From assembly GCA_021791725.1 (NCBI GenBank), contig JAJYVZ010000001.1:1-58236 (forward strand): a stretch of DNA of 58,236 nt, given 5' to 3'. The position numbers were made by a program, and so were the translations under genes. Positions 13,563-54,378 of the stretch are shown piece by piece; the first letter of the stretch is position 1, and every line of letters starts with the position of its first letter. Under the pieces are notes generated by a model that had not been told where the DNA came from, searched no databases, and worked only from the letters and a program-made list of their open reading frames with translations. Source of the DNA: Candidatus Micrarchaeota archaeon (GTDB lineage: Archaea > Micrarchaeota > Micrarchaeia > Micrarchaeales > CABMGC01).

Positions 13563-14138
13563 TCACTCCCCGCGGAATCCCAGTCGTTTCCTTATCGCAT
13601 CGTTTATCAGTTCCAGAGCCTCCTTGTTGTTGGAAGCGTAGACAGAAGTGCCGATGCCCTTGTCATCTTTCAGGGTTGGATCAGCGCCCCTGGAGAGCAG
13701 CAGCCTCACAATGTCTATATTCTTCTCGCTTAGGCACGCGATCATGAGGGCAGTTACTCCCCCGTCAGTTCTGGCATCTATGTCAAGGCCCTTGCCCTCC
13801 TCTATTAAAATTTTTGCGATATCGCTGCGTTCCATGTATACTGCCCACACCAGCGCCGTCTCTTTATTATAACTCAGCAGGTTTGGATCCGCGCCCTCTT
13901 GCAGGAGCTTCCTTACGCTTTCCCCCTTTCCCCAGCCTACCGCGTACATCAACATTGTATTCCCGTCGGAATAGGCGTTTATGTTGGCTCCGCCCTTTAT
14001 GCTCCTCCCGATCTGTTCTGCATCTCCTTTGAACACTGCCATGAGGAGCATCTTATCCAGCTCAGGCTGCATCTTGCTTCTGACTATGTCCTTCGCCTGT
14101 TCCAGAATTGGCTTGTAATGCGCCCCCATCCCATCCAT
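13563..14138 (-). CDS. Ankyrin-repeat protein
   Basis: Repeated GNTMLMYAV...LLQEGADPN, TALVWAV...ILIEEG and VTALMIAC...LLLSRGADPT units. Confidence 0.8.
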   Translation of the reverse strand: MDGMGAHYKPILEQAKDIVRSKMQPELDKMLLMAVFKGDAEQIGRSIKGGANINAYSDGNTMLMYAVGWGKGESVRKLLQEGADPNLLSYNKETALVWAVYMERSDIAKILIEEGKGLDIDARTDGGVTALMIACLSEKNIDIVRLLLSRGADPTLKDDKGIGTSVYASNNKEALELINDAIRKRLGFRGE

Positions 14139-32270: not shown

Positions 32271-32693
32271 TTAGTTGTTAGATGTTTTTACGACTCTGAT
32301 CTCCCTGTTTAAAAACAATTCAACGGCGTTTTCGTAAACCATCTTTCCGTTCTCGTCCTTTTTGACTGAGTTGTTGCACGATAATACGGCCCGTTTTACA
32401 ACCGGGGCGACAGGCGATGTTACAGTTACGAAATTGTATATCAGCGTAACCACCGCGTTGCACTCCTCTGTCAGAAATCTCGCTATGTCTATCTTATTGC
32501 TTGCGAACGCCAGCATTGCAGCGGTCTTCCCATCCGCATCCTTTGCATCTATGTTGCCCCCCAGGGCCTTGATGTCCCTTGCCAGCTTCTTCACGTCCTC
32601 GATCCTGCCGTTTCTTGCGGCTTCCCTGAGCCCAGATTCCTTTGCTGCCTTCACTGTTTCTATAAGCGGATCTTTTCCAGAGAAACTCTCCAT
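32271..32693 (-). CDS. Small protein with one or two ankyrin-like repeats
   Basis: AARNGRIEDVKKL...GGNIDAKDADGKTAAMLAFASNKIDIARFL. Confidence 0.55.
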   Translation of the reverse strand: MESFSGKDPLIETVKAAKESGLREAARNGRIEDVKKLARDIKALGGNIDAKDADGKTAAMLAFASNKIDIARFLTEECNAVVTLIYNFVTVTSPVAPVVKRAVLSCNNSVKKDENGKMVYENAVELFLNREIRVVKTSNN

Positions 32694-45969: not shown

Positions 45970-46110
45970 TATGACCTTTCTTTTACCTAAAGAAAGAGAA
46001 TTTATAAATAAATATTTAAATCTTTTTATATAAAATAGTTCAGTCCGTAATGAGAGTTAGTATTATCTCCTTGCTTCAAATTCTAACATTGCAGTCTTAA
46101 CGGTGTATGC

Positions 46111-46347
46111 TTGGCTTCCGAGATAGAACATGAACTGGTACCTTTGCACAAGATTCTTAGTGACAAGGAAGCCAATGACGTCCTTGGCGAACTCGGCATA
46201 AACAGGGATCAGCTTCCAAAGATATTCGATACAGACCCGCAGGCGAAGAAGCTTGGGGCGGTGAACGGGCAGATGATAAGGATAAACAGGGAGGACAATG
46301 GAAAGAAATATGCCTACTACAGGATTGTGGTAAAGGCATATTCCTAA
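46111..46347 (+). CDS. rpoH: RNA polymerase subunit Rpo5 (RpoH)
   Basis: HELVPLHKILSDKEANDVL...LPKI...DPQAKKLGA..GQMIRI.R. TTG start. First gene of the RNAP operon. Confidence 0.9.
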   Translation: MASEIEHELVPLHKILSDKEANDVLGELGINRDQLPKIFDTDPQAKKLGAVNGQMIRINREDNGKKYAYYRIVVKAYS

Positions 46348-46365: not shown

Positions 46366-47841
46366 ATGGGCAACGAAGTGCTTGAATCGTATCTAAGTTC
46401 TACTCCGCTCATGCAGCAGCATCTCGACAGCTACAACAGGTTCATTGACATAGGGATACAGCGCATAATAGACGAGCAGAAGGTCATAGAGCCGAACGTG
46501 GAGGGCTTTGCGCTCAAGCTCGGAAAATTAAGGCTTGACAGGCCGTCTATAATAGAGGCCGACAGCTCAAGGCGCAACATACTGCCGAACGAGGCCAGGC
46601 TTAGGAACCTTACGTACGCTGCGCCAATGTTCCTTGAGCTAATACCGGTAATAAGGGGCATAGAGAAGCCATCTTCCTATGGCGAGGTCTTCATAGGAGA
46701 ACTGCCGGTCATGTTAAAGAGTAGTTTGTGCAACATAAACCTTTACAACAGGGGCCAGCTCACAGAGAACGGCGAGGACCCCGATGACCCCGGAGGCTAC
46801 TTCATAATAAAGGGTACGGAACGCGCTCTGGTGGGTCTTGAGGACATAGCGCCCAACAGGATAATAACTACGCTTGAGAAGGATGGCGCAGAGGTTGTCA
46901 GCAAGGTGTTCTCCACCTCTACGAACTTCAGGGCGAGATGCACTACAACCAGGAACATGCACGGCATGTTCAATGTCAACTTCCCCACGGCGCCGAAGAA
47001 CATAGACCTTGTGCTCGCGCTCAAGGCCCTTGGCATGCAGGCAAAGGAGATAATAGAGATATCCAGCGACATAGAGGTCGTGAAGAACGACATGCTTCTT
47101 AACGTAGAGTCCAGCAAGGGCGCCGAGATGCCTGCTGCCGAGGCTGTGCTTGAGATCGGAAGGCTCTCTGCGCCGAACCAAGCGGCTGAATATCAGCAGA
47201 AAAGGGCAGAGACGCAGCTCGATACCTATCTTCTTCCGCACATAGGCTCCGATCCCGAGCTCAGGAAGCAGAAGGCAAGATACCTTCTTGACATGGCGCG
47301 TCGTGCGGCTCTCGTAGGAAGCCGGTACATAAAACAGGACGACAAGGACCACTACGCAAACAAGAGAGTCAAGTTCTCGGGCAAGCTTATGGAGGATCTG
47401 TTCGCATATGCGTTCAAGTTCTTCGTGAAGGACGTGAAGTACCAGATAGAGAGGACGAATGCCAGGGGAAGGAGAATGAGCATACAGACAATAATAAGCC
47501 CTGACACCATAACGGAGAAGATATCATATGCGATGGGAACCGGAACGTGGGTGGCAGGGCAGACAGGAATTTCGCAGGTGCTTGACAGGACAAACATAGT
47601 GAGCATGAATGCGCACCTTCGAAGGATAAAGTCGCCGCTTGCAAAGAAACACCCGCATTTCAAGGCAAGGGACGTGCACGGCACGCAGTGGGGCAAGATC
47701 TGCCCTTCGGAATCCCCTGAAGGGCAGGAGGTTGGCCTGACCAAGTACCTTGCAATAATGTCCAAGGTCACCATAGGCACTGACGACAAGTTCATAGAGG
47801 GCAAGATAAAGGAGATAGGAAAACTGAAGAGTTCTGCATGA
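46366..47841 (+). CDS. rpoB2: RNA polymerase subunit B'' (Rpo2N, N-terminal part of split subunit B)
   Basis: LMQQHLDSYNRFI, PNEARLRNLTYAAP, GGYFIIKGTERA and KSPLAKKHPHFKARDVHGTQWGKICPSESPEG. Confidence 0.95.
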   Translation: MGNEVLESYLSSTPLMQQHLDSYNRFIDIGIQRIIDEQKVIEPNVEGFALKLGKLRLDRPSIIEADSSRRNILPNEARLRNLTYAAPMFLELIPVIRGIEKPSSYGEVFIGELPVMLKSSLCNINLYNRGQLTENGEDPDDPGGYFIIKGTERALVGLEDIAPNRIITTLEKDGAEVVSKVFSTSTNFRARCTTTRNMHGMFNVNFPTAPKNIDLVLALKALGMQAKEIIEISSDIEVVKNDMLLNVESSKGAEMPAAEAVLEIGRLSAPNQAAEYQQKRAETQLDTYLLPHIGSDPELRKQKARYLLDMARRAALVGSRYIKQDDKDHYANKRVKFSGKLMEDLFAYAFKFFVKDVKYQIERTNARGRRMSIQTIISPDTITEKISYAMGTGTWVAGQTGISQVLDRTNIVSMNAHLRRIKSPLAKKHPHFKARDVHGTQWGKICPSESPEGQEVGLTKYLAIMSKVTIGTDDKFIEGKIKEIGKLKSSA

Positions 47842-47860
47842 CGCATGGTTTGGTGTTAAT

Positions 47861-49690
47861 CTGGCAAAGAAGATAAACGAGAGATGCTACGTATACCTCA
47901 ACGACAGGATAATAGGATACGTCGAGAACGGCGAGGAGTATGCAAAGGAGATAAGGGACGCAAGAAGGAAGGGCATGCTCTCCGGGGAGATAAACGTAGC
48001 TTACATAGAGCGGCTCAACGCCGTCCGCATAAACACGGATTTCGGAAGGATCAGAAAGCCATATGTCGTAGTCGAGAATGGGGTCTCGAAGCTGACGAAC
48101 GAGATAAGGGAGAAGATAAGGAACAAGGAAGTGGATTTCAATTACCTGACAAGGAACGGCATAGTAGAGTACCTTGACGCAGAAGAGGAGGAGAATGCGC
48201 TTGTTGCCTTCTTCGACAGCGATATAACAAAGGAGAACACGCACGTTGAGGCCGACCTTGCCGGCATATTCGGGTTTACGCTGAGCGTGTCGCCCTTCCC
48301 AGAGCACAACAGCCTGGCAAGGCATGCAATGCTCTCCAACTTCATAAAGCAGAGCGAGGGTCTATATGCTACGAACTTCGGCCTCAGGTTCGATTCGCGG
48401 GCATACCTGCTTTTCTATCCGCAGAACCCCATCGTATCGACAACAGCGTACAGGAACACAAAGATAGAGACGCATCCCTCAGGGCAGAACCTGATAGTCG
48501 CGCTCTCTACATATTACGGATACAACATGAAAGACGCCATAGTGCTTAACAAAGCTGCCGTAGACAGGGGCATGGGGCGCAGCATGTTCTACAAGACATA
48601 CTCCGACGAGGAAAGAAGGTATCCCGGCGGGCAGAAGGACAGCTTCAGGATACCGCCGGCGACGTCCGAAGGGTACCTGGGCGAACACGCATACGCCAAT
48701 CTCAGCGACGACGGGATAATAGAGCCCGAGACCAAGATAGACGAGGGGAATATAGTCATAGGGAAGGTCTCGCCGCCAAGATTCCTCGAGGAGAACGTAG
48801 GTGCGTCCGGGCTTGAGGAAAGGCTTCGCGATTCGTCGACATCACTCAAGGGCGGGGAGAGCGGCATAGTAGACAGCGTCATATTCACAGAATCAACAGG
48901 CGCGACCAAGGTCGTCAAGGTAAGGATAAGGAGCCTGAGGATACCAGAGAACGGCGACAAGTTCGCCAGCAGGCACGGGCAGAAAGGGGTAGTTGCGCTT
49001 ATAGTGAATCAGGAGGACATGCCTTTCAGCGACGACGGGATAATACCCGACATTCTTGTCAACCCGCACAGCATACCTACAAGGCTTACGTTCGGCCATC
49101 TGCTTGAAGAGATGGCAGGCAAGGTCGGAGCGGTCTCTGGAAAGCTCATGGACGGCACGGCATTCTCAGAGAAGGGGATAAACAGGATAGAAGAATACGG
49201 GAAGGAGCTCGAGGCGCGTGGCTTCGACAGGTACGGCAACGAGAACTTCTATGACGGCATAACCGGCAAGAGGTTCAAGGCGGAGATATTCAACGGCATA
49301 GTCTACTACAACAGGCTTTACCACATGGTAAGCAACAAGATGCAGGTAAGGAGCAGAGGCCCTGTGCAGATTCTCACGCACCAGCCTACGGAAGGCAAGG
49401 CGAGGCAGGGAGGCCTAAGATTCGGGGAGATGGAGAGAGACGTAATAGTCGGATACGGGGCAAGCCTTCTCTTAAAGGAAAGGCTCCTTGACCAGAGCGA
49501 CAAGGCATCGGTGCTCGTATGCAAGGAGTGCGGCAACATAGGATATTACGATTACATAAAGAGGACCGGCGCGTGCCAGATATGCAGGAGCACAAACCTT
49601 GCCGAGATAGAGATGAGCTACGCGTTCAAGCTCCTGCTTGACGAGATAAAGTCCTTGCACATAATGCCTAGGATACGCATGAGGGATTGA
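47861..49690 (+). CDS. rpoB1: RNA polymerase subunit B' (Rpo2C, C-terminal part of split subunit B); 5' end uncertain
   Basis: GDKFASRHGQKGV, PDILVNPHSIPTRLTFGHL, GGLRFGEMERD and a C-terminal Zn ribbon CKECG...CQIC. The first ATG is 47975, but the conserved N-terminal sequence YVYLNDRIIGYVENGEEYAKEIRDARRKG is encoded in frame upstream. I provisionally start at CTG 47861. Confidence 0.85.
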   Translation: MAKKINERCYVYLNDRIIGYVENGEEYAKEIRDARRKGMLSGEINVAYIERLNAVRINTDFGRIRKPYVVVENGVSKLTNEIREKIRNKEVDFNYLTRNGIVEYLDAEEEENALVAFFDSDITKENTHVEADLAGIFGFTLSVSPFPEHNSLARHAMLSNFIKQSEGLYATNFGLRFDSRAYLLFYPQNPIVSTTAYRNTKIETHPSGQNLIVALSTYYGYNMKDAIVLNKAAVDRGMGRSMFYKTYSDEERRYPGGQKDSFRIPPATSEGYLGEHAYANLSDDGIIEPETKIDEGNIVIGKVSPPRFLEENVGASGLEERLRDSSTSLKGGESGIVDSVIFTESTGATKVVKVRIRSLRIPENGDKFASRHGQKGVVALIVNQEDMPFSDDGIIPDILVNPHSIPTRLTFGHLLEEMAGKVGAVSGKLMDGTAFSEKGINRIEEYGKELEARGFDRYGNENFYDGITGKRFKAEIFNGIVYYNRLYHMVSNKMQVRSRGPVQILTHQPTEGKARQGGLRFGEMERDVIVGYGASLLLKERLLDQSDKASVLVCKECGNIGYYDYIKRTGACQICRSTNLAEIEMSYAFKLLLDEIKSLHIMPRIRMRD

Positions 49691-49691
49691 G

Positions 49692-52337
49692 ATGCAGACC
49701 GAAGCGATAAACAACATAAAGTTCGGGATACTTCCTTCAGAGACGATAAGGAAGGCCAGCGTAGTGAAGCTGAGCGTTCCCGACACATACAACGAGGACG
49801 GCTATCCGATAGACAACGGCCTTCTTGACCAGAGGATGGGCGTCATAGACCCAGGCCTCGTGTGCAAGACATGCGGAGCCAGGGCAAAGGTATGCCCCGG
49901 GCACTTTGGCCACATAGACCTGGTAAGGCCAGTGATACATTCGGAATTCTCCAAGATAATATACGCAGTGCTTGATTCGATATGTCAAAAATGCGGCAGA
50001 ATACTCATGACCGGAGAGCAGCTTGAGCAGAAGGCCGACGAGCTAAAGGAGATAATCGTTGAGGAGAAGCCGGCCCTGGAATCGCAGCACGAAGCGCCGC
50101 AGGAGAGAGAAGCGAAGGAAGATGAGAGCGGGAGCACGGATGAGAATGTGCAGAAACAAGGCAGGAGGTCGAAGACTGATCACGGGAGCGACAAGAGGAA
50201 GCGGGCGTCGATGTTCAAGAAGCTGAAGAGCATAAGGACATGCCCGCACTGCGGAGCCCCGCAGGAAAAGGTAAAGTTCGAGGCGCCTACATACTTTTAC
50301 ATAGGAGATAGGAGGATGCGGCCAGACGAGATACGCGACATGTTCGTAAAGGTGAGCGATGACGATCTTAGGTCGCTGGGCATAGACCCTGAGATAAGCA
50401 GGCCGGAGAACCTGATAATAACCGCGCTGCTCGTTCCTCCGGTCAACGTCAGGCCGTCAGTGACGCTTGAGACCGGAGAGAGGAGCGAGGACGACCTAAC
50501 GCACAAGCTTGTCGACATAATGAGGATAAACCAGAGACTCGAGCAGAACATAAACGCCGGTGCCCCGCCGATAATAATAGACGACCTGTGGGAGCTCCTG
50601 CAGTACAACATAACCACATACTTCAACAACGAGACATCAGGCATACCCCCAGCGCGTCACAGGAGCGGGCGCGCCTTGAAGACAATAGCCCAGAGGCTGA
50701 AGGGCAAGGAGGGGCGTTTCAGGTACAACCTTAGCGGGAAGAGAGTGAACTTCTCCGCAAGAACGGTCATATCGGTAGACCCGAACATAGGGCTTGACGA
50801 GGTTGGGGTGCCCAGGATAATAGCAGGCAAGCTTACTGTGCCGTTCTACGTTACCGAATGGAACTTCGAGAGGGCAAAGCAGATGATGGAAAGGACAGAG
50901 TACCCGATGGTCCTAAGCATAATATCAAAGGACGGCAAGAGGAAGAGGGTTACAGAGACAAACAGGGAGGAGCTGATAAAAGGAATGGTTCCGCACGACA
51001 TACTCGAGAGACAGCTGGTCGACGGCGACATAGCCGTATTCAATAGGCAGCCTTCGCTGCACAGGATGTCAATGATGGCGCACAAGGTCAAGGTGCTGCC
51101 AGGCAAGACGTTCAGGATGAACTTCTGCGTAACGCATCCGTACAATGCCGACTTCGACGGGGACGAGATGAACCTGCACATACCGCAGACGCTGGAGGCG
51201 CAGGCCGAGGCGGTATACCTGATGTCAGTGAAGGACCAGATATTCTCCCCCAGGGACGGCGCTGCCATAATATCCGGAGATGAGGACGACATAACCGGAC
51301 TTTACCTTCTTACGCTCGACGATACGGAACTGACAAAGGAAGACGCATGCTACCTGCTTGGGCTGATAGGCATAACGGAGCTGCCAGACCCGAGAAGGAA
51401 CGGCATGTACAGCGGCAAGGACATCTTCTCCATGTTGCTGCCCGAGGGCCTTGACGTGGAGCAGAAGGGAAAGAGCGGAACGTTCGAGGTGAAGAAAGGG
51501 AAGCTCACAGGAGGAAGGATAACAAAGGAGATATATACGCACAACTCGAGGCTACTGTCTGCGATAGCGTATGAGTACGGCGCCGAGGCGCTGAAGAGGT
51601 TCATAGAGATATCCGCAAGGCTCGCTGACGCTTACGTTACCCTTTACGGCACAACGGTGGGAATAAAGGAGTACCAGATAGACAGGAAGGTGCAGGAGGA
51701 GAGGGAAGCGTCGATAACCGAGATATTCGAGAGGACGAGCAAGCTGATAGAGCAGTACAAGGCGGGAAAGCTCGAGTCGCTCATAGGCTACACGGCCAAA
51801 CAGTCGCTTGAGATGCAGATCATGGCCGAGCTGGCAAAGGCCATAGACATAGAAGGCGAGATAATAACGAAGCATGCGAACGCAGACAACAATGCGGTGA
51901 GAATGGTGCGCGCGGGATCGAGGGGAAGCATATTCAACCTGGTGCAGATGTCAATGCTCCTGGGCCAGCAGTCAACCCTAAGCGGAGGAAGGATAAAGAG
52001 AGGATACTACACCAACAGGGTGCTGCCGCACATAAAGCCTGGATCGATAGACCCGAGATCAAGGGGGTTCGTAACCACCAACTTCTACATTGGGCTGTCG
52101 CCGATAGACATATACATGCACGCGATAGGGTCAAGGACATCGGTCGTATACAAGGCGCTCCTCACCGCGAGAAGCGGCTACCTTCAGAGAAGGCTGATGA
52201 ATGCGCTGCAGGACTATTACGTGGAGCAGGACCTGAGCGTGCGGGATGTGTACGGAAACATGATAGAGACGGTTTATGCCGGCGACGGAATAGACCCAGT
52301 GAAACTGTCGTTTACGAAGATAAAGGAGAAGAAGTGA
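49692..52337 (+). CDS. rpoA1: RNA polymerase subunit A' (Rpo1N)
   Basis: CKTCG...CPGHFGHIDL, RFRYNLSGKRVNFSARTVIS and NADFDGDEMNLH, the catalytic motif. Confidence 0.95.
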   Translation: MQTEAINNIKFGILPSETIRKASVVKLSVPDTYNEDGYPIDNGLLDQRMGVIDPGLVCKTCGARAKVCPGHFGHIDLVRPVIHSEFSKIIYAVLDSICQKCGRILMTGEQLEQKADELKEIIVEEKPALESQHEAPQEREAKEDESGSTDENVQKQGRRSKTDHGSDKRKRASMFKKLKSIRTCPHCGAPQEKVKFEAPTYFYIGDRRMRPDEIRDMFVKVSDDDLRSLGIDPEISRPENLIITALLVPPVNVRPSVTLETGERSEDDLTHKLVDIMRINQRLEQNINAGAPPIIIDDLWELLQYNITTYFNNETSGIPPARHRSGRALKTIAQRLKGKEGRFRYNLSGKRVNFSARTVISVDPNIGLDEVGVPRIIAGKLTVPFYVTEWNFERAKQMMERTEYPMVLSIISKDGKRKRVTETNREELIKGMVPHDILERQLVDGDIAVFNRQPSLHRMSMMAHKVKVLPGKTFRMNFCVTHPYNADFDGDEMNLHIPQTLEAQAEAVYLMSVKDQIFSPRDGAAIISGDEDDITGLYLLTLDDTELTKEDACYLLGLIGITELPDPRRNGMYSGKDIFSMLLPEGLDVEQKGKSGTFEVKKGKLTGGRITKEIYTHNSRLLSAIAYEYGAEALKRFIEISARLADAYVTLYGTTVGIKEYQIDRKVQEEREASITEIFERTSKLIEQYKAGKLESLIGYTAKQSLEMQIMAELAKAIDIEGEIITKHANADNNAVRMVRAGSRGSIFNLVQMSMLLGQQSTLSGGRIKRGYYTNRVLPHIKPGSIDPRSRGFVTTNFYIGLSPIDIYMHAIGSRTSVVYKALLTARSGYLQRRLMNALQDYYVEQDLSVRDVYGNMIETVYAGDGIDPVKLSFTKIKEKK

Positions 52338-52352
52338 TGTTTGGTCGATCTT

Positions 52353-53000
52353 ATGCCTATAGAGAAGAACATGAATCCGGAAGAGGGCGGAAGGGGAAGG
52401 AGCGAGCTGGAGCTTAAGGCCGAGAGGTTTTACGGCGAACTCACGCTGCCAAGATACCTTGAGCTCTCTTTGGTCAACGCCGCGCGGCAAGGCGACGCCT
52501 ATGGGTGCAAATTCTTAATCAGGAACGGGGTGGACGTGAATGCGAGGGGCATTGCTAACGATACGGCATTGATGCACGCATGCTCCCAGGGAGACGTGGA
52601 ATTCTCGAAATTCCTTATAGAGAATGGGGCAGACGTAAACGCACAGGAAAATTCAGGATTCAGTCCCCTGATGCTTGCGGTAACGGCCGGCGCGACCGAG
52701 ATAGTAAAAATGCTGCTTGAGAAAGGCGCGGATCCCAACGCAAGAAATAGCGAGGGAAACACGGCACTGATATATGCAAAGGCCGGCGCGCTGCTGGGAA
52801 TGGACGGCTATGAGTACATGATGCAGCTTCTTGAAGGCAGAGGAGCGACATTAAGCAAAGAGGACGAGGAGAAGGTCGATAAGAATATAAGAGAAGCAAA
52901 GAAAGAGCAAAACGAAATCGAGGCTCTTAGAAGGGACATGCAGGATGCGCAGGAATGGGGAGAAGAAGAACACGGAAACGGCAATTCAGGCCTAAATTAA
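52353..53000 (+). CDS. Ankyrin-repeat protein encoded inside the RNAP operon
   Basis: LVNAARQGDAYGCKFLIRNGVDVNA, TALMHACSQGDVEFSKFLIENGADVNA, SPLMLAVTAGATEIVKMLLEKGADPNA, and NTALIYA. The ORF opens 3 nt after the rpoA' stop, and its TAA overlaps the rpoA'' ATG. Confidence 0.85.
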   Translation: MPIEKNMNPEEGGRGRSELELKAERFYGELTLPRYLELSLVNAARQGDAYGCKFLIRNGVDVNARGIANDTALMHACSQGDVEFSKFLIENGADVNAQENSGFSPLMLAVTAGATEIVKMLLEKGADPNARNSEGNTALIYAKAGALLGMDGYEYMMQLLEGRGATLSKEDEEKVDKNIREAKKEQNEIEALRRDMQDAQEWGEEEHGNGNSGLN

Positions 53001-54070
53001 TGCAAGTGCATACGATGAAGAAAGAAAACGATAAAAATAATCTGAGCGTTACGCCTGGAGAGCCGGTAGGGGTTATTGCGGCGCAGTCCATAGGGGAGCC
53101 AGGCACGCAGATGATCCTTAGGTCCTTCCACAGGGCAGGAATGGCGTCGGTGACGGCGACCGCAGGGCTGCCGAGGCTTGCCGAGATAATAGACGCGAAG
53201 AAGAAGCCTGGCACGCCGTTCACATTCATATACCTTGACGGCAGGACGAGCAAGAACGCCGAGAGGGCCTTCGAGATCGCAAAGAAGATAAACGAGGTGA
53301 AGGTAAGGGACCTCGCGAAGAGGATAACGGAGAAGTTCTCGATAGGGGCGATAAAGATAGTGCTGAACGAGCAGGCCCTGAATTCCAACGAGCTCACGGC
53401 GCGGGAGGTTGCTGCGAAGATAGTAAAGTTGACTGAGTACGTAGCGAAGACGAAGAACAACGTGATACTGATCGGAACGCACACGAAAGACCTCAAGAAG
53501 ATACGCTCCTCGGCAGTCAGGATATCGGATCTTACCATAAGCGGCGTGGAAGGCGCAGGGCGTGCAGTAATACAGCAGGACAAGAACACCGGAGAGTTTT
53601 ACCTGATATCCGCGGACAGCAACTTGGAGAGCATAATGCAGATAGAAGGGGTTGACGGATCACGGATATACACCAACGACATCTTCAAGGTATACGGCGT
53701 GTTTGGGATAGAGGCCGCGAGGAACGCGATATACAGGGAACTGAAGAAGACGCTTGACGACCAGGGCATAACTGTTGACGGGCGGCACCTGATGCTTGTA
53801 GCCGACGCCATGACCTTCTCGGGCCAGATAAAGAACGTCGGCAGGCACGGGCTGAGCGGGGAGAAGGGATCTGTGCTAGCAAGGGCCGCATACGAAGAGA
53901 CCGTGAAGCACCTTGTCAACGCAGCCGCATTCGGAGAGGAGGACAGCATGAGGGGCATTACCGAGAGCGTGCTCCTGGGCAAGCAGATAATGGTCGGCAC
54001 CGGAACCGTAGAGCTCTCGGTAAGGAAGGAGGACATGGCCAAGATGAAGGCGAAGGAGCAGAAAAAGTGA
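53000..54070 (+). CDS. rpoA2: RNA polymerase subunit A'' (Rpo1C)
   Basis: VTPGEPVGVIAAQSIGEPGTQM, DGRHLMLVADAMTFSG and ETVKHLVNAAAFGEED. ATG at 53000 (TAATG junction). Confidence 0.95.
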   Translation: MQVHTMKKENDKNNLSVTPGEPVGVIAAQSIGEPGTQMILRSFHRAGMASVTATAGLPRLAEIIDAKKKPGTPFTFIYLDGRTSKNAERAFEIAKKINEVKVRDLAKRITEKFSIGAIKIVLNEQALNSNELTAREVAAKIVKLTEYVAKTKNNVILIGTHTKDLKKIRSSAVRISDLTISGVEGAGRAVIQQDKNTGEFYLISADSNLESIMQIEGVDGSRIYTNDIFKVYGVFGIEAARNAIYRELKKTLDDQGITVDGRHLMLVADAMTFSGQIKNVGRHGLSGEKGSVLARAAYEETVKHLVNAAAFGEEDSMRGITESVLLGKQIMVGTGTVELSVRKEDMAKMKAKEQKK

Positions 54071-54153: not shown

Positions 54154-54378
54154 ATGACGCAAGAGAGGCCTTTCGACCTGTTGAACAAGGCAATAGGAAA
54201 CCAGGTTCTGATACGGCTTAAGAACGGGATGGACATACGGGGAGTGATGAACTCCTTCGACGTTCACATGAACATAGTGATGGAGAACGCCGAGGAACTC
54301 GACGAAGGCAATATCAAGGCGAAGCTCGGCACCATACTGTTAAGAGGAGGAAACATACTATTCATATCCCCAGCATGA
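54154..54378 (+). CDS. Sm-like archaeal protein (SmAP/LSm)
   Basis: Sm1 is VLIRLKNGMDIRGVMNSFDVHMNIVMENAEE. Sm2 is LGTILLRGGNILFI. Confidence 0.85.
   Translation: MTQERPFDLLNKAIGNQVLIRLKNGMDIRGVMNSFDVHMNIVMENAEELDEGNIKAKLGTILLRGGNILFISPA

What the first reader, a model, noticed from the sequence alone, without database searches (positions are those of the whole stretch)
52341..53002. Ankyrin-repeat gene inserted and translationally coupled between rpoA' and rpoA''
The gene order is rpoH, rpoB'', rpoB', rpoA', an ankyrin gene, then rpoA''. The rpoA' stop (TGA, 52335-52337) is followed 3 nt later by the ankyrin ORF, which opens at TTG 52341 with its first ATG at 52353. The ankyrin stop overlaps the rpoA'' start as TAATG (52998-53002).

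In archaea the two halves of the largest RNAP subunit are normally directly adjacent. A four-repeat ankyrin protein with a charged C-terminal tail is not a known RNAP operon member. The tight junctions argue for co-transcription and co-translation with the core RNAP subunits. That suggests an RNAP-associated or regulatory role, or a selfish insertion tolerated in a highly expressed operon.
Basis: partly seen in the sequence, partly recalled or inferred. Interest (0 to 1): 0.6.

Follow-up and report, generated by a model that had tools for sequence, protein, structure and literature searches.

The report
Ankyrin guest gene splitting rpoA'/rpoA''
One uncultured tiny archaeon (Micrarchaeota) carries an intact ankyrin-repeat gene wedged exactly between the two halves of its largest RNA polymerase subunit gene, but none of 86 checked relatives has it, so it looks like a species-specific guest of the operon and not a polymerase part.

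Summary
The join is not an assembly artefact: the same rpoA'-ANK-rpoA''-LSM order stands on 11 contigs, and the 7 shown come from 7 sample or run accessions.

The insert is unique. In 86 Micrarchaeota genomes and the 3 closest metagenomic relatives, A' and A'' are adjacent or fused. The protein has no ortholog among 5.8 billion proteins.

No promoter-like box or T5 run lies between the rpoH promoter region and the end of LSM, so the gene should be co-transcribed. It sits where relatives have a 2-10 nt spacer. It took over the (A)GTGA ribosome-binding motif built into the A' stop. It passes ribosomes to A'' through the TAATG overlap or a second AAGTGC-N5-ATG motif.

Nothing supports an RNA polymerase role. 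Its codon usage is genome-average, while the four flanking polymerase genes sit in the 87th-99th percentile. No relative has an ankyrin gene within about 20 kb of rpoA''.

Best reading: a lineage-specific guest gene for a cytoplasmic protein-binding adaptor. An RNA polymerase-linked chaperone or regulator remains a minority possibility.

The parts
46000..46035 (+). A/T-rich region with the only TATA-like boxes of the operon, upstream of rpoH; presumed single promoter region
   Evidence: Motif scan. TTTATA, TTTAAA and TTATAT cluster here. The only other hits before 54600 are two ATATAT matches inside the coding sequence of A' and ANK. Promoter function is inferred, not shown.
46111..46347 (+). 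rpoH (Rpb5 C-terminal domain)
   Evidence: Pfam PF01191, E 2e-21
46366..47841 (+). rpoB'' (Rpb2 domains 1-3)
   Evidence: Pfam; gene called identically on L051
47861..49690 (+). rpoB' (Rpb2 domains 4-7), probably starting at CTG 47861; first ATG at 47975
   Evidence: Pfam. GGTG lies at -9 from the CTG. From the CTG the protein is 609 aa, against 608-609 aa in relatives.
49692..52337 (+). rpoA' (881 aa, Rpb1 domains 1-5), TGA stop at 52335-52337
   Evidence: called identically on independent contigs
52332..52343 (+). Left junction AAGTGA-TGT-TTG. The A' stop is embedded in the (A)GTGA ribosome-binding motif that serves rpoA'' in relatives. Here it lies 3 nt before the ankyrin TTG.
   Evidence: Sequence. 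Relatives' junctions read GTGA-N4/5-ATG. In this genome GTGA peaks at -8 and GGTG at -9 before first ATGs.
52341..53000 (+). Ankyrin-repeat gene: 219 aa from TTG 52341 or 215 aa from ATG 52353. It has an N-terminal helix, four ANK repeats (about residues 34-166 of the 215-aa form) and a charged C-terminal helix. pI 4.7, net charge -14.
   Evidence: an identical protein stands on 11 contigs
52998..53002 (+). TAATG: the ankyrin stop overlaps the first in-frame ATG of rpoA''
   Evidence: Sequence. Gene callers of the public assemblies used this ATG, giving 356 aa.
53004..53017 (+). Right junction AAGTGC-ATACG-ATG. This is a second, degenerate copy of the ancestral junction motif, 672 nt (224 codons) downstream of the first. 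ATG 53015 is the alternative, family-typical rpoA'' start.
   Evidence: Sequence compared with relatives' junctions and N-termini. The 5-nt repeat AAGTG alone is not statistically strong.
53000..54070 (+). rpoA'' (356 aa, or 351 aa from ATG 53015; Rpb1 domain 5; pI 9.45)
54154..54378 (+). LSM (Sm-like) gene, the next gene on the same strand
   Evidence: Pfam PF01423, E 6e-22

Best explanation
This is a species-specific guest gene. About 670 nt encoding a cytoplasmic four-repeat ankyrin adaptor was inserted into the 2-10 nt spacer that separates rpoA' from rpoA'' in all sampled relatives.

How it is expressed (inferred from sequence):
- It has no promoter or terminator of its own, so it is transcribed on the rpoH-B''-B'-A'-A'' message.
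- Ribosomes finishing A' meet the (A)GTGA motif built into the A' stop, then TTG 52341 three bases later and ATG 52353 fifteen bases later. The ankyrin gene therefore uses the ribosome-binding site that serves A'' in relatives.
- A'' is then translated by re-initiation at the TAATG overlap, or from a degenerate second copy of the motif (AAGTGC-N5-ATG 53015).
- This arrangement explains how the insertion was tolerated: it keeps A'' expression.

What the product is:
- It is a folded, acidic protein-binding module with a long charged C-terminal helix.
- It is most probably not a polymerase subunit. Its partner is unknown.

Shown: the insertion, its uniqueness, the fold and the junction anatomy.
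Inferred: co-transcription, coupling, and the lack of a polymerase role.
For: - The ORF and its domains are real.
- The same join stands on 11 contigs, and the 7 shown come from 7 sample or run accessions; they are 99.96-100% identical to the window.
- A'/A'' are adjacent or fused in 29 loci of family and order relatives. In the phylum survey this holds for 73 genomes. The two sets together make 86 distinct genomes.
- The 3 closest RpoA'' known, at 66-68% identity, also have the genes 2-10 nt apart.
- The ankyrin protein has no ortholog. The best non-self hits are 37-51% identical, on repeats only. The C-terminal 56 residues hit only the protein itself among 5.8 billion proteins. Exhaustive HMMER returns only generic multi-ANK proteins.
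- In-genome paralogs are at most 44% identical, on repeats only.
- Codon usage: ANK has GC3 0.597 (42nd percentile) and a CAI-like index at the 53rd percentile. rpoB'', B', A' and A'' have GC3 0.67-0.73 and sit in the 87th-99th percentile.
- No relative has an ANK hit on the rpoA'' contig closer than about 20 kb.
- No TATA-like box or T5 run lies between 46035 and 54600 on the + strand.
- Junction motif analysis supports the takeover of the A'' ribosome-binding site.
Against: - Genomes of about 0.8 Mb tend to lose useless DNA, yet this ORF is intact, folds confidently and is packed to the base at both ends. That fits a selected function made in step with polymerase subunits.
- The protein is strongly acidic (net -14) and lies next to a basic A'' (net +10). 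This pattern recalls dedicated chaperones.
- An earlier unchecked note of this scan reports another ankyrin pair inside a Micrarchaeota polymerase operon. That would make the ANK-rpo association recurrent.
- No expression, interaction or selection data exist. All known copies are one near-clonal population.
Confidence: 0.6

Rival explanations
1. The ankyrin protein is a lineage-specific polymerase-linked factor. It could be a dedicated assembly chaperone that captures nascent basic A'' (or A') as it leaves the ribosome, or an accessory or regulatory subunit docking near the A'/A'' seam.
For: - It is encoded exactly between its putative clients, with coupled translation.
- It is acidic (pI 4.7, net -14) while A'' is basic (pI 9.45, net +10).
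- It has no signal peptide or membrane segment in the sequence and a well-folded ANK binding module.
- Analogy from the literature: the ankyrin protein Yar1 captures nascent Rps3 co-translationally (PMC4491177, PMC5098186).
- An earlier unchecked note reports an ANK pair in another Micrarchaeota rpo operon.
Against: - It is absent from all 86 checked relatives, whose polymerases are otherwise orthologous.
- No ortholog exists anywhere.
- Its codon usage is average, unlike the four polymerase genes around it.
- It has no specific similarity to Yar1, gankyrin or any polymerase subunit family. All NCBIfam hits are far below their cut-offs.
Confidence: 0.2
2. The ORF is a recent, functionally neutral passenger. 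It stays open mainly because translating it relays ribosomes from A' to A''. A frameshift or early stop would uncouple A'' translation and be lethal.
For: - The TAATG overlap and the loss of the direct SD-to-A'' arrangement seen in relatives.
- Average codon usage.
- Single-lineage occurrence with no sequence diversity.
Against: - Relay alone would not preserve four near-consensus ANK repeats and a confidently predicted fold, unless the insertion is very young.
- A degenerate SD-like AAGTGC-N5-ATG 53015 could allow independent A'' initiation.
- The gene has no close donor anywhere, which argues against a very recent copy.
Confidence: 0.12
3. Occasional readthrough of the A' TGA yields an A'-ankyrin fusion. 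This would tether an ANK domain to the polymerase at the A' C-terminus.
For: The ANK ORF is in frame with rpoA', separated only by TGA and TGT. The read-through frame is 1105 aa.
Against: - Being in frame has a one-in-three chance expectation.
- TGA is the commonest stop codon of this genome, at 334 of 693 crude ORFs, so it is not reassigned.
- No readthrough signal is known here.
- The TGA is part of the conserved GTGA ribosome-binding motif, which explains its presence.
Confidence: 0.03
4. The insert is a selfish mobile element or homing-type insertion.
For: It is a precise insertion into an essential operon. A 5-nt direct repeat AAGTG sits at both borders, 672 nt apart.
Against: - It has only an ANK domain, with no transposase, integrase, endonuclease or intein motif.
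- There are no terminal inverted repeats.
- There is no second copy in the genome.
- GC content equals that of the flanks.
- The repeat coincides with a functional ribosome-binding motif.
Confidence: 0.03
5. The join is an assembly chimera at 52338 or 53000.
For: None found.
Against: 11 contigs from ENA (MEGAHIT-type) and Logan assemblies carry the identical join; the 7 shown come from 7 sample or run accessions. Several of them cover little more than the insert and both flanks.
Confidence: 0.01

Closest known systems
Generic prokaryotic ankyrin-repeat proteins and consensus DARPins (Pfam PF00023, PF12796)
   Same: It has four 33-residue helix-turn-helix repeats. It is 36-41% identical to designed consensus ankyrins, at rmsd 1.4-1.9 A over about 131 residues. 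The family is patchy in Micrarchaeota: 18 of 41 related genomes have hits. This genome has at least 7 such loci above the Pfam cut-off, plus two weak ones.
   Different: The N-terminal 33 residues and the 49-residue charged C-terminal helix are orphan. The genomic position inside rpoA is unprecedented in the genomes surveyed.
Lineage-restricted archaeal polymerase subunits Rpo13 and Rpo8/RpoG of Crenarchaeota
   Same: These are small, lineage-specific proteins added to a conserved polymerase core. This is what the gene would resemble if the polymerase-link reading were true.
   Different: Those subunits are conserved across a whole phylum-level clade and were found in purified enzyme and crystal structures. 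This gene occurs in one species-level population and has no biochemical evidence.
Yar1, the ankyrin-repeat dedicated chaperone of ribosomal protein uS3 (PMC4491177, PMC5098186)
   Same: It is a small acidic ANK protein proposed to shield a basic client co-translationally. This is the mechanistic model for rival 1.
   Different: There is no specific sequence relationship beyond the ANK fold. Yar1 acts in trans in eukaryotes. Client binding is untested here.
Guest genes at the rpoB/rpoA' junction of other DPANN archaea
   Same: Small, lineage-variable genes are packed between polymerase core genes. One Micrarchaeota case is an ankyrin-like pair.
   Different: Here the junction is A'/A'', which is empty in every relative checked. 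In this family the B'/A' junction is also clean in 60 of 60 relatives, so there is no variable 'slot' here.

Membership tests
Ankyrin-repeat family (Pfam Ank PF00023, Ank_2 PF12796) | Tandem 33-residue repeats scoring above the Pfam gathering cut-offs | tested here: met
   Ank scores 83.6 bits against a cut-off of 21.1. Ank_2 scores 80.1 bits against 27.3.
Ankyrin-repeat family (Pfam Ank PF00023, Ank_2 PF12796) | Stacked helix-loop-helix repeat solenoid fold | tested here: met
   The AlphaFold2 model has pLDDT 89.2 with four helix pairs. Foldseek matches DARPins at rmsd 1.4-1.9 A with probability 1.00.
Archaeal RNA polymerase subunit (core or accessory) | Conserved presence in related genomes | tested here: not met
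   No ortholog was found in 40 relatives or in 5.8 billion proteins. The A'/A'' junction is empty in 86 genomes.
Archaeal RNA polymerase subunit (core or accessory) | Sequence or fold similarity to a known Rpo subunit | tested here: not met
   Only ANK families are hit in Pfam, NCBIfam and the PDB fold search.
Archaeal RNA polymerase subunit (core or accessory) | Physical association with the enzyme | not testable with these tools
   This needs purification, pull-down or complex modelling. The structure tool folds single chains only.
Dedicated ANK chaperones (Yar1, gankyrin/Nas6 type) | Acidic ANK protein with a specific basic client | tested here: inconclusive
   The acidic ANK part is met: pI 4.7, next to A'' at pI 9.45. 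Client binding is untestable, and no orthology signal was found.
Mobile or selfish element | Mobility gene, terminal repeats, multiple copies | tested here: not met
   No mobility domain, no terminal inverted repeats and a single copy. The only repeat is a 5-nt AAGTG at both borders.
Stop-codon recoding or programmed readthrough fusion | Two ORFs in frame, separated by one stop | tested here: met
   TGA and TGT separate A' and ANK in one frame; the open frame is 1105 aa if TGA is read through.
Stop-codon recoding or programmed readthrough fusion | TGA reassigned or demonstrably leaky | tested here: not met
   TGA ends 334 of 693 crude ORFs and is the commonest stop. Leakiness at this particular site cannot be tested here.
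Variable gene-cassette slot inside DPANN polymerase operons (earlier notes) | The same junction is occupied by differing small genes in relatives | tested here: not met
   The A'/A'' junction is empty in all relatives checked. The B'/A' junction is empty in 60 of 60 relatives.

The most novel reading that the evidence does not exclude
The ankyrin protein is a newly recruited, species-specific partner of the archaeal RNA polymerase. It would be made from the same mRNA, in step with A' and A''. It would bind the basic A'' (or the A'/A'' seam near the secondary channel) as an assembly chaperone or regulator. A minor A'-ANK fusion from TGA readthrough could tether it. That would be a snapshot of how a multisubunit polymerase acquires a new subunit.
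Probability: 0.15. Interest if true: 0.7.

Novelty: new variant of a known kind. Interest (0 to 1): 0.35.

Why it matters
The rpoA'/rpoA'' pair is among the most rigidly linked gene pairs in archaea. Here a foreign-type gene has been inserted into its few-base spacer without breaking the operon. It appears to have taken over the ribosome-binding site of A'' and to pass ribosomes on.

This is a clean natural example of how an essential, tightly coupled operon can absorb a new gene. If the product does bind polymerase, it would show how a new subunit or chaperone is born. As it stands, it is a single-lineage curiosity without functional evidence. It adds one more case, at a new junction, to the guest genes seen in DPANN polymerase operons.

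Tried and rejected
Expression and read-level junction support could not be examined. Independent assemblies stand in for the junction check.
- Closer relatives: scans of metagenome contigs and genome contigs with RpoA'' returned only distant loci at 46-52% identity. The 5.8-billion-protein search found nothing closer than 68%. The insertion therefore cannot be dated and dN/dS cannot be computed.
- Orthologs by exhaustive HMMER: the output was swamped by giant multi-ANK proteins and was uninformative. A tail-only search found only the protein itself.
- Defence, phage or effector families: the PADLOC hits (PDC-M72A, Ankyrin, MzaA) and the NCBIfam hits (MzaA, Legionella Ank effectors) are generic repeat matches far below their cut-offs. 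They were rejected as memberships.
- TGA recoding: rejected.
- Foreign composition: rejected, since GC content equals the flanks.
- Terminal or target-site repeats: none convincing.
- 16S anti-SD: not found in this MAG. Upstream-motif statistics were used to infer the SD instead.
- Literature: no paper links ankyrin proteins with archaeal polymerase or its operon.
- A paralog tree was not built, because repeat proteins with at most 44% identity on repeats only give no reliable tree. Pairwise scores were used. The window's other ANK genes are not the donors: 13563-14138 on the minus strand is 31-41% identical, and 32271-32693 on the minus strand is sub-threshold.
Full report
**1. What is there**

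The ORF list and raw sequence confirm each coordinate of the finding:
- rpoA' runs 49692-52337 and ends in TGA at 52335-52337.
- TGT follows, and then an ORF opens at TTG 52341. Its first ATG is at 52353 and its stop is TAA 52998-53000.
- The last A of that stop is the first base of ATG 53000, which is in the rpoA'' frame (to 54070).

Pfam assigns the following:
- Rpb1 domains 1-5 to the 881-aa A', and Rpb1 domain 5 to A''.
- Rpb5_C to the upstream 78-aa ORF (rpoH).
- Rpb2 domains 1-3 to B'' and domains 4-7 to B'.
- LSM to the gene after A''.

The inserted ORF hits Ank, Ank_2, Ank_3, Ank_4 and Ank_5 above their curated cut-offs (E 4e-24 for Ank).

AlphaFold2 on an alignment of 37 sequences gives mean pLDDT 89.2 and pTM 0.80. 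The model has an N-terminal helix (18-28), four helix-pair repeats (33-57, 72-90, 105-123, 138-162) and one long C-terminal helix (169-207). Foldseek places the core on four-repeat DARPins and consensus ankyrins (rmsd 1.4-1.9 A over about 131 residues, 36-41% identity).

The protein is acidic (pI 4.7, net -14). The neighbouring A'' is basic (pI 9.45, net +10). The sequence shows no signal peptide or membrane segment.

**2. It is not an artefact**

The exact 215-aa protein is encoded on 11 contigs. The 7 shown come from 7 sample or run accessions: three ENA assemblies and four Logan runs. The order is always rpoA'-ANK-rpoA''(-LSM). The seven contigs fetched are 99.96-100% identical to the window, with five SNPs in all and none in the ankyrin gene. 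The join is therefore real. All copies belong to one near-clonal population, so they give no evolutionary depth.

**3. It is unique to this lineage**

The genome is a 0.8-Mb Micrarchaeota MAG, 85.6% complete.

*The A'/A'' junction in relatives*
- In 29 loci from family- and order-level relatives, the A' C-terminus and the A'' N-terminus lie within a few bases of each other, or are fused. No ankyrin match lies between them.
- A phylum-wide search with a fused A'-end/A''-start query (221 genomes) lists 41 genomes where one match spans the junction. It lists 32 more where both halves appear and abut.
- Together this makes 86 distinct genomes, including all 39 same-family genomes with matches. The window's genome is the only one with a gap.
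- Weaker class-level rows were cut from the listing and remain unchecked.
- The three closest RpoA'' proteins among 5.8 billion (66-68% identity) also have A' and A'' 2-10 nt apart.

*The ankyrin protein itself*
- It has no ortholog. The best non-self hits are 37-51% identical over the repeats only.
- Its C-terminal 56 residues find only the protein itself.
- The exhaustive HMMER scan returns only giant multi-ANK proteins.

*Ankyrin genes in this genome and its relatives*
- The genome has at least seven loci above the Pfam Ank_2 cut-off, plus two weak ones. The nearest paralogs are 43-44% identical on repeats only. Neither the N-terminus nor the tail has a relative in the genome.
- The two other ankyrin genes of the window are not donors. 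The ORF at 13563-14138 (minus strand) is 31-41% identical. The ORF at 32271-32693 (minus strand) falls below the Pfam threshold.
- In relatives, no ankyrin hit lies on the rpoA'' contig closer than about 20 kb.

**4. Anatomy of the insertion**

*The junction in relatives.* It reads ...(A/G)(A/G)GTGA-N4/5-ATG GCA AA(A/G).... The A' stop is usually TGA.

*The ribosome-binding motif in this genome.* GGTG peaks at -9 and GTGA at -8 before first ATGs. GGTGA-N4-ATG is therefore the ribosome-binding motif used by a minority of genes. In relatives the A' stop codon is part of the ribosome-binding site of A''.

*The left junction in the window.* The motif survives at the A' end (AAGTGA, 52332-52337). 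It is now followed after 3 nt by the ankyrin TTG, and after 15 nt by the ankyrin ATG.

*The right junction in the window.* A degenerate second copy, AAGTGC-ATACG-ATG (53004-53017), lies exactly 672 nt (224 codons) downstream. It precedes ATG 53015. The product from that ATG begins MKKEN, which matches relatives' MAKKEN and the usual N-terminal length. A'' may therefore start at 53000 (the TAATG overlap, chosen by the public gene callers) or at 53015.

*Signs of a mobile origin.*
- The five-base repeat is too short to prove a target-site duplication.
- No inverted repeats flank the insert.
- GC content equals that of the flanks.

*Transcription signals.* On the + strand there is no T5 run and no TATA-like box between 46035 and 54600, apart from two ATATAT matches inside coding sequence. 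An A/T-rich cluster of TATA-like boxes sits at 46000-46035, before rpoH. I infer one transcript for rpoH through at least A''.

**5. Does it work with the polymerase?**

Against a polymerase role:
- The four polymerase genes around it have the codon bias of highly expressed genes (GC3 0.67-0.73; CAI-like index in the 87th-99th percentile of 693 crude ORFs). The ankyrin gene is average (GC3 0.597, 42nd percentile; index at the 53rd percentile).
- It is absent from every relative.
- No ANK-rpo linkage is conserved.

For a polymerase role:
- The packing is base-perfect at both ends.
- The ORF is intact and well folded in a very small genome.
- The acidic ANK lies next to a basic A'', which recalls the Yar1-uS3 model of co-translational capture (PMC4491177, PMC5098186).
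- An earlier unchecked note of this scan reports an ankyrin-like pair between rpoB' and rpoA' in another Micrarchaeota genome.

I tested whether this family has a variable guest-gene slot like those notes describe. It does not. The B'/A' junction is clean in 60 of 60 relatives, and the A'/A'' junction is clean in all relatives checked.

One caveat applies to the intact ORF. Because ANK translation probably relays ribosomes to A'', ORF integrity alone does not prove that the protein is useful.

**6. The in-frame detail**

The ankyrin ORF is in the rpoA' frame, separated from it only by TGA and TGT. The read-through frame is 1105 aa. TGA is the commonest stop of the genome (334 of 693 crude ORFs), so it is not reassigned. 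It is also part of the conserved GTGA motif. Low-level readthrough cannot be excluded, but nothing supports it.

**7. Verdict**

The gene is a species-specific ankyrin guest, inserted into the A'/A'' spacer. It is co-transcribed and probably translationally coupled.

I put about 0.6 on 'guest adaptor gene, not a polymerase part'. About 0.2 goes to a polymerase-linked chaperone or regulator, and about 0.12 to a neutral relay ORF. The rest goes to readthrough fusion, a mobile element or an artefact.

It is a new variant of a known kind: an archaeal polymerase operon with an ankyrin gene at a junction not seen occupied elsewhere. Interest is 0.35.

No literature on ankyrin proteins in archaeal polymerase operons was found.

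Noticed in passing
window 47825-47975: rpoB' has no ATG, GTG or TTG before its conserved N-terminus. In-frame CTG 47861 (CTG GCA AAG AAG) is preceded by GGTG at -9, the genome's ribosome-binding position. From the CTG the protein is 609 aa, as in relatives (608-609 aa), and Pfam Rpb2_4 then starts at residue 11. The same bases appear in the independent contig L051. A CTG start looks likely.
   Followed up: partly
L031 (G012), and G173, G081, G194, G064 and G229: Several Micrarchaeota have rpoA' and rpoA'' as one uninterrupted ORF of about 1130-1220 aa with no stop. Many others have the two halves in frame, separated by a single stop. The split of subunit A, usually treated as an archaeal constant, is labile in this phylum.
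   Followed up: partly
whole genome G000: Only about 2-7% of first-ATG upstream regions carry the individual GGTG, GTGA or GGTGA motifs, and these are sharply positioned (GGTG at -9, GTGA at -8). Most genes seem to lack a Shine-Dalgarno motif. The 16S 3' end is missing from the MAG.
   Followed up: partly
G104:C5:44-610 against G104:C8:135061-135633: An order-level relative has an extra rpoA'' fragment at a contig start. It is 63% identical to the window, which is family-level similarity, and it lies apart from that genome's rpoA'. This could be bin contamination or a second copy.
   Followed up: no
window 52337-52417: ATG 52337 overlaps the A' stop (GTGATG, as in several relatives, where it is the A'' start). 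Here it opens a 26-codon out-of-frame ORF inside the start of the ankyrin gene. It may be a relic of the ancestral A'' start or a decoy for re-initiating ribosomes.
   Followed up: no
window 54154-54378; L062 6948-7172: An LSM gene follows rpoA'' directly, where the usual archaeal order has rpl30e-nusA. In the closest relative with a long contig, the LSM gene lies about 2.4 kb downstream, beyond three other genes. The region after A'' has therefore also been rearranged.
   Followed up: no
window 13563-14138 (-) and 32271-32693 (-); G000 contigs C20, C22, C28, C30, C32: This 0.8-Mb genome has at least seven ankyrin loci above the Pfam cut-off, including a 607-aa multi-repeat protein on C28. 18 of 41 related genomes have ankyrin hits, some with in-frame stops (G028 C20, G026). 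This is a patchy, turning-over accessory family in Micrarchaeota.
   Followed up: partly
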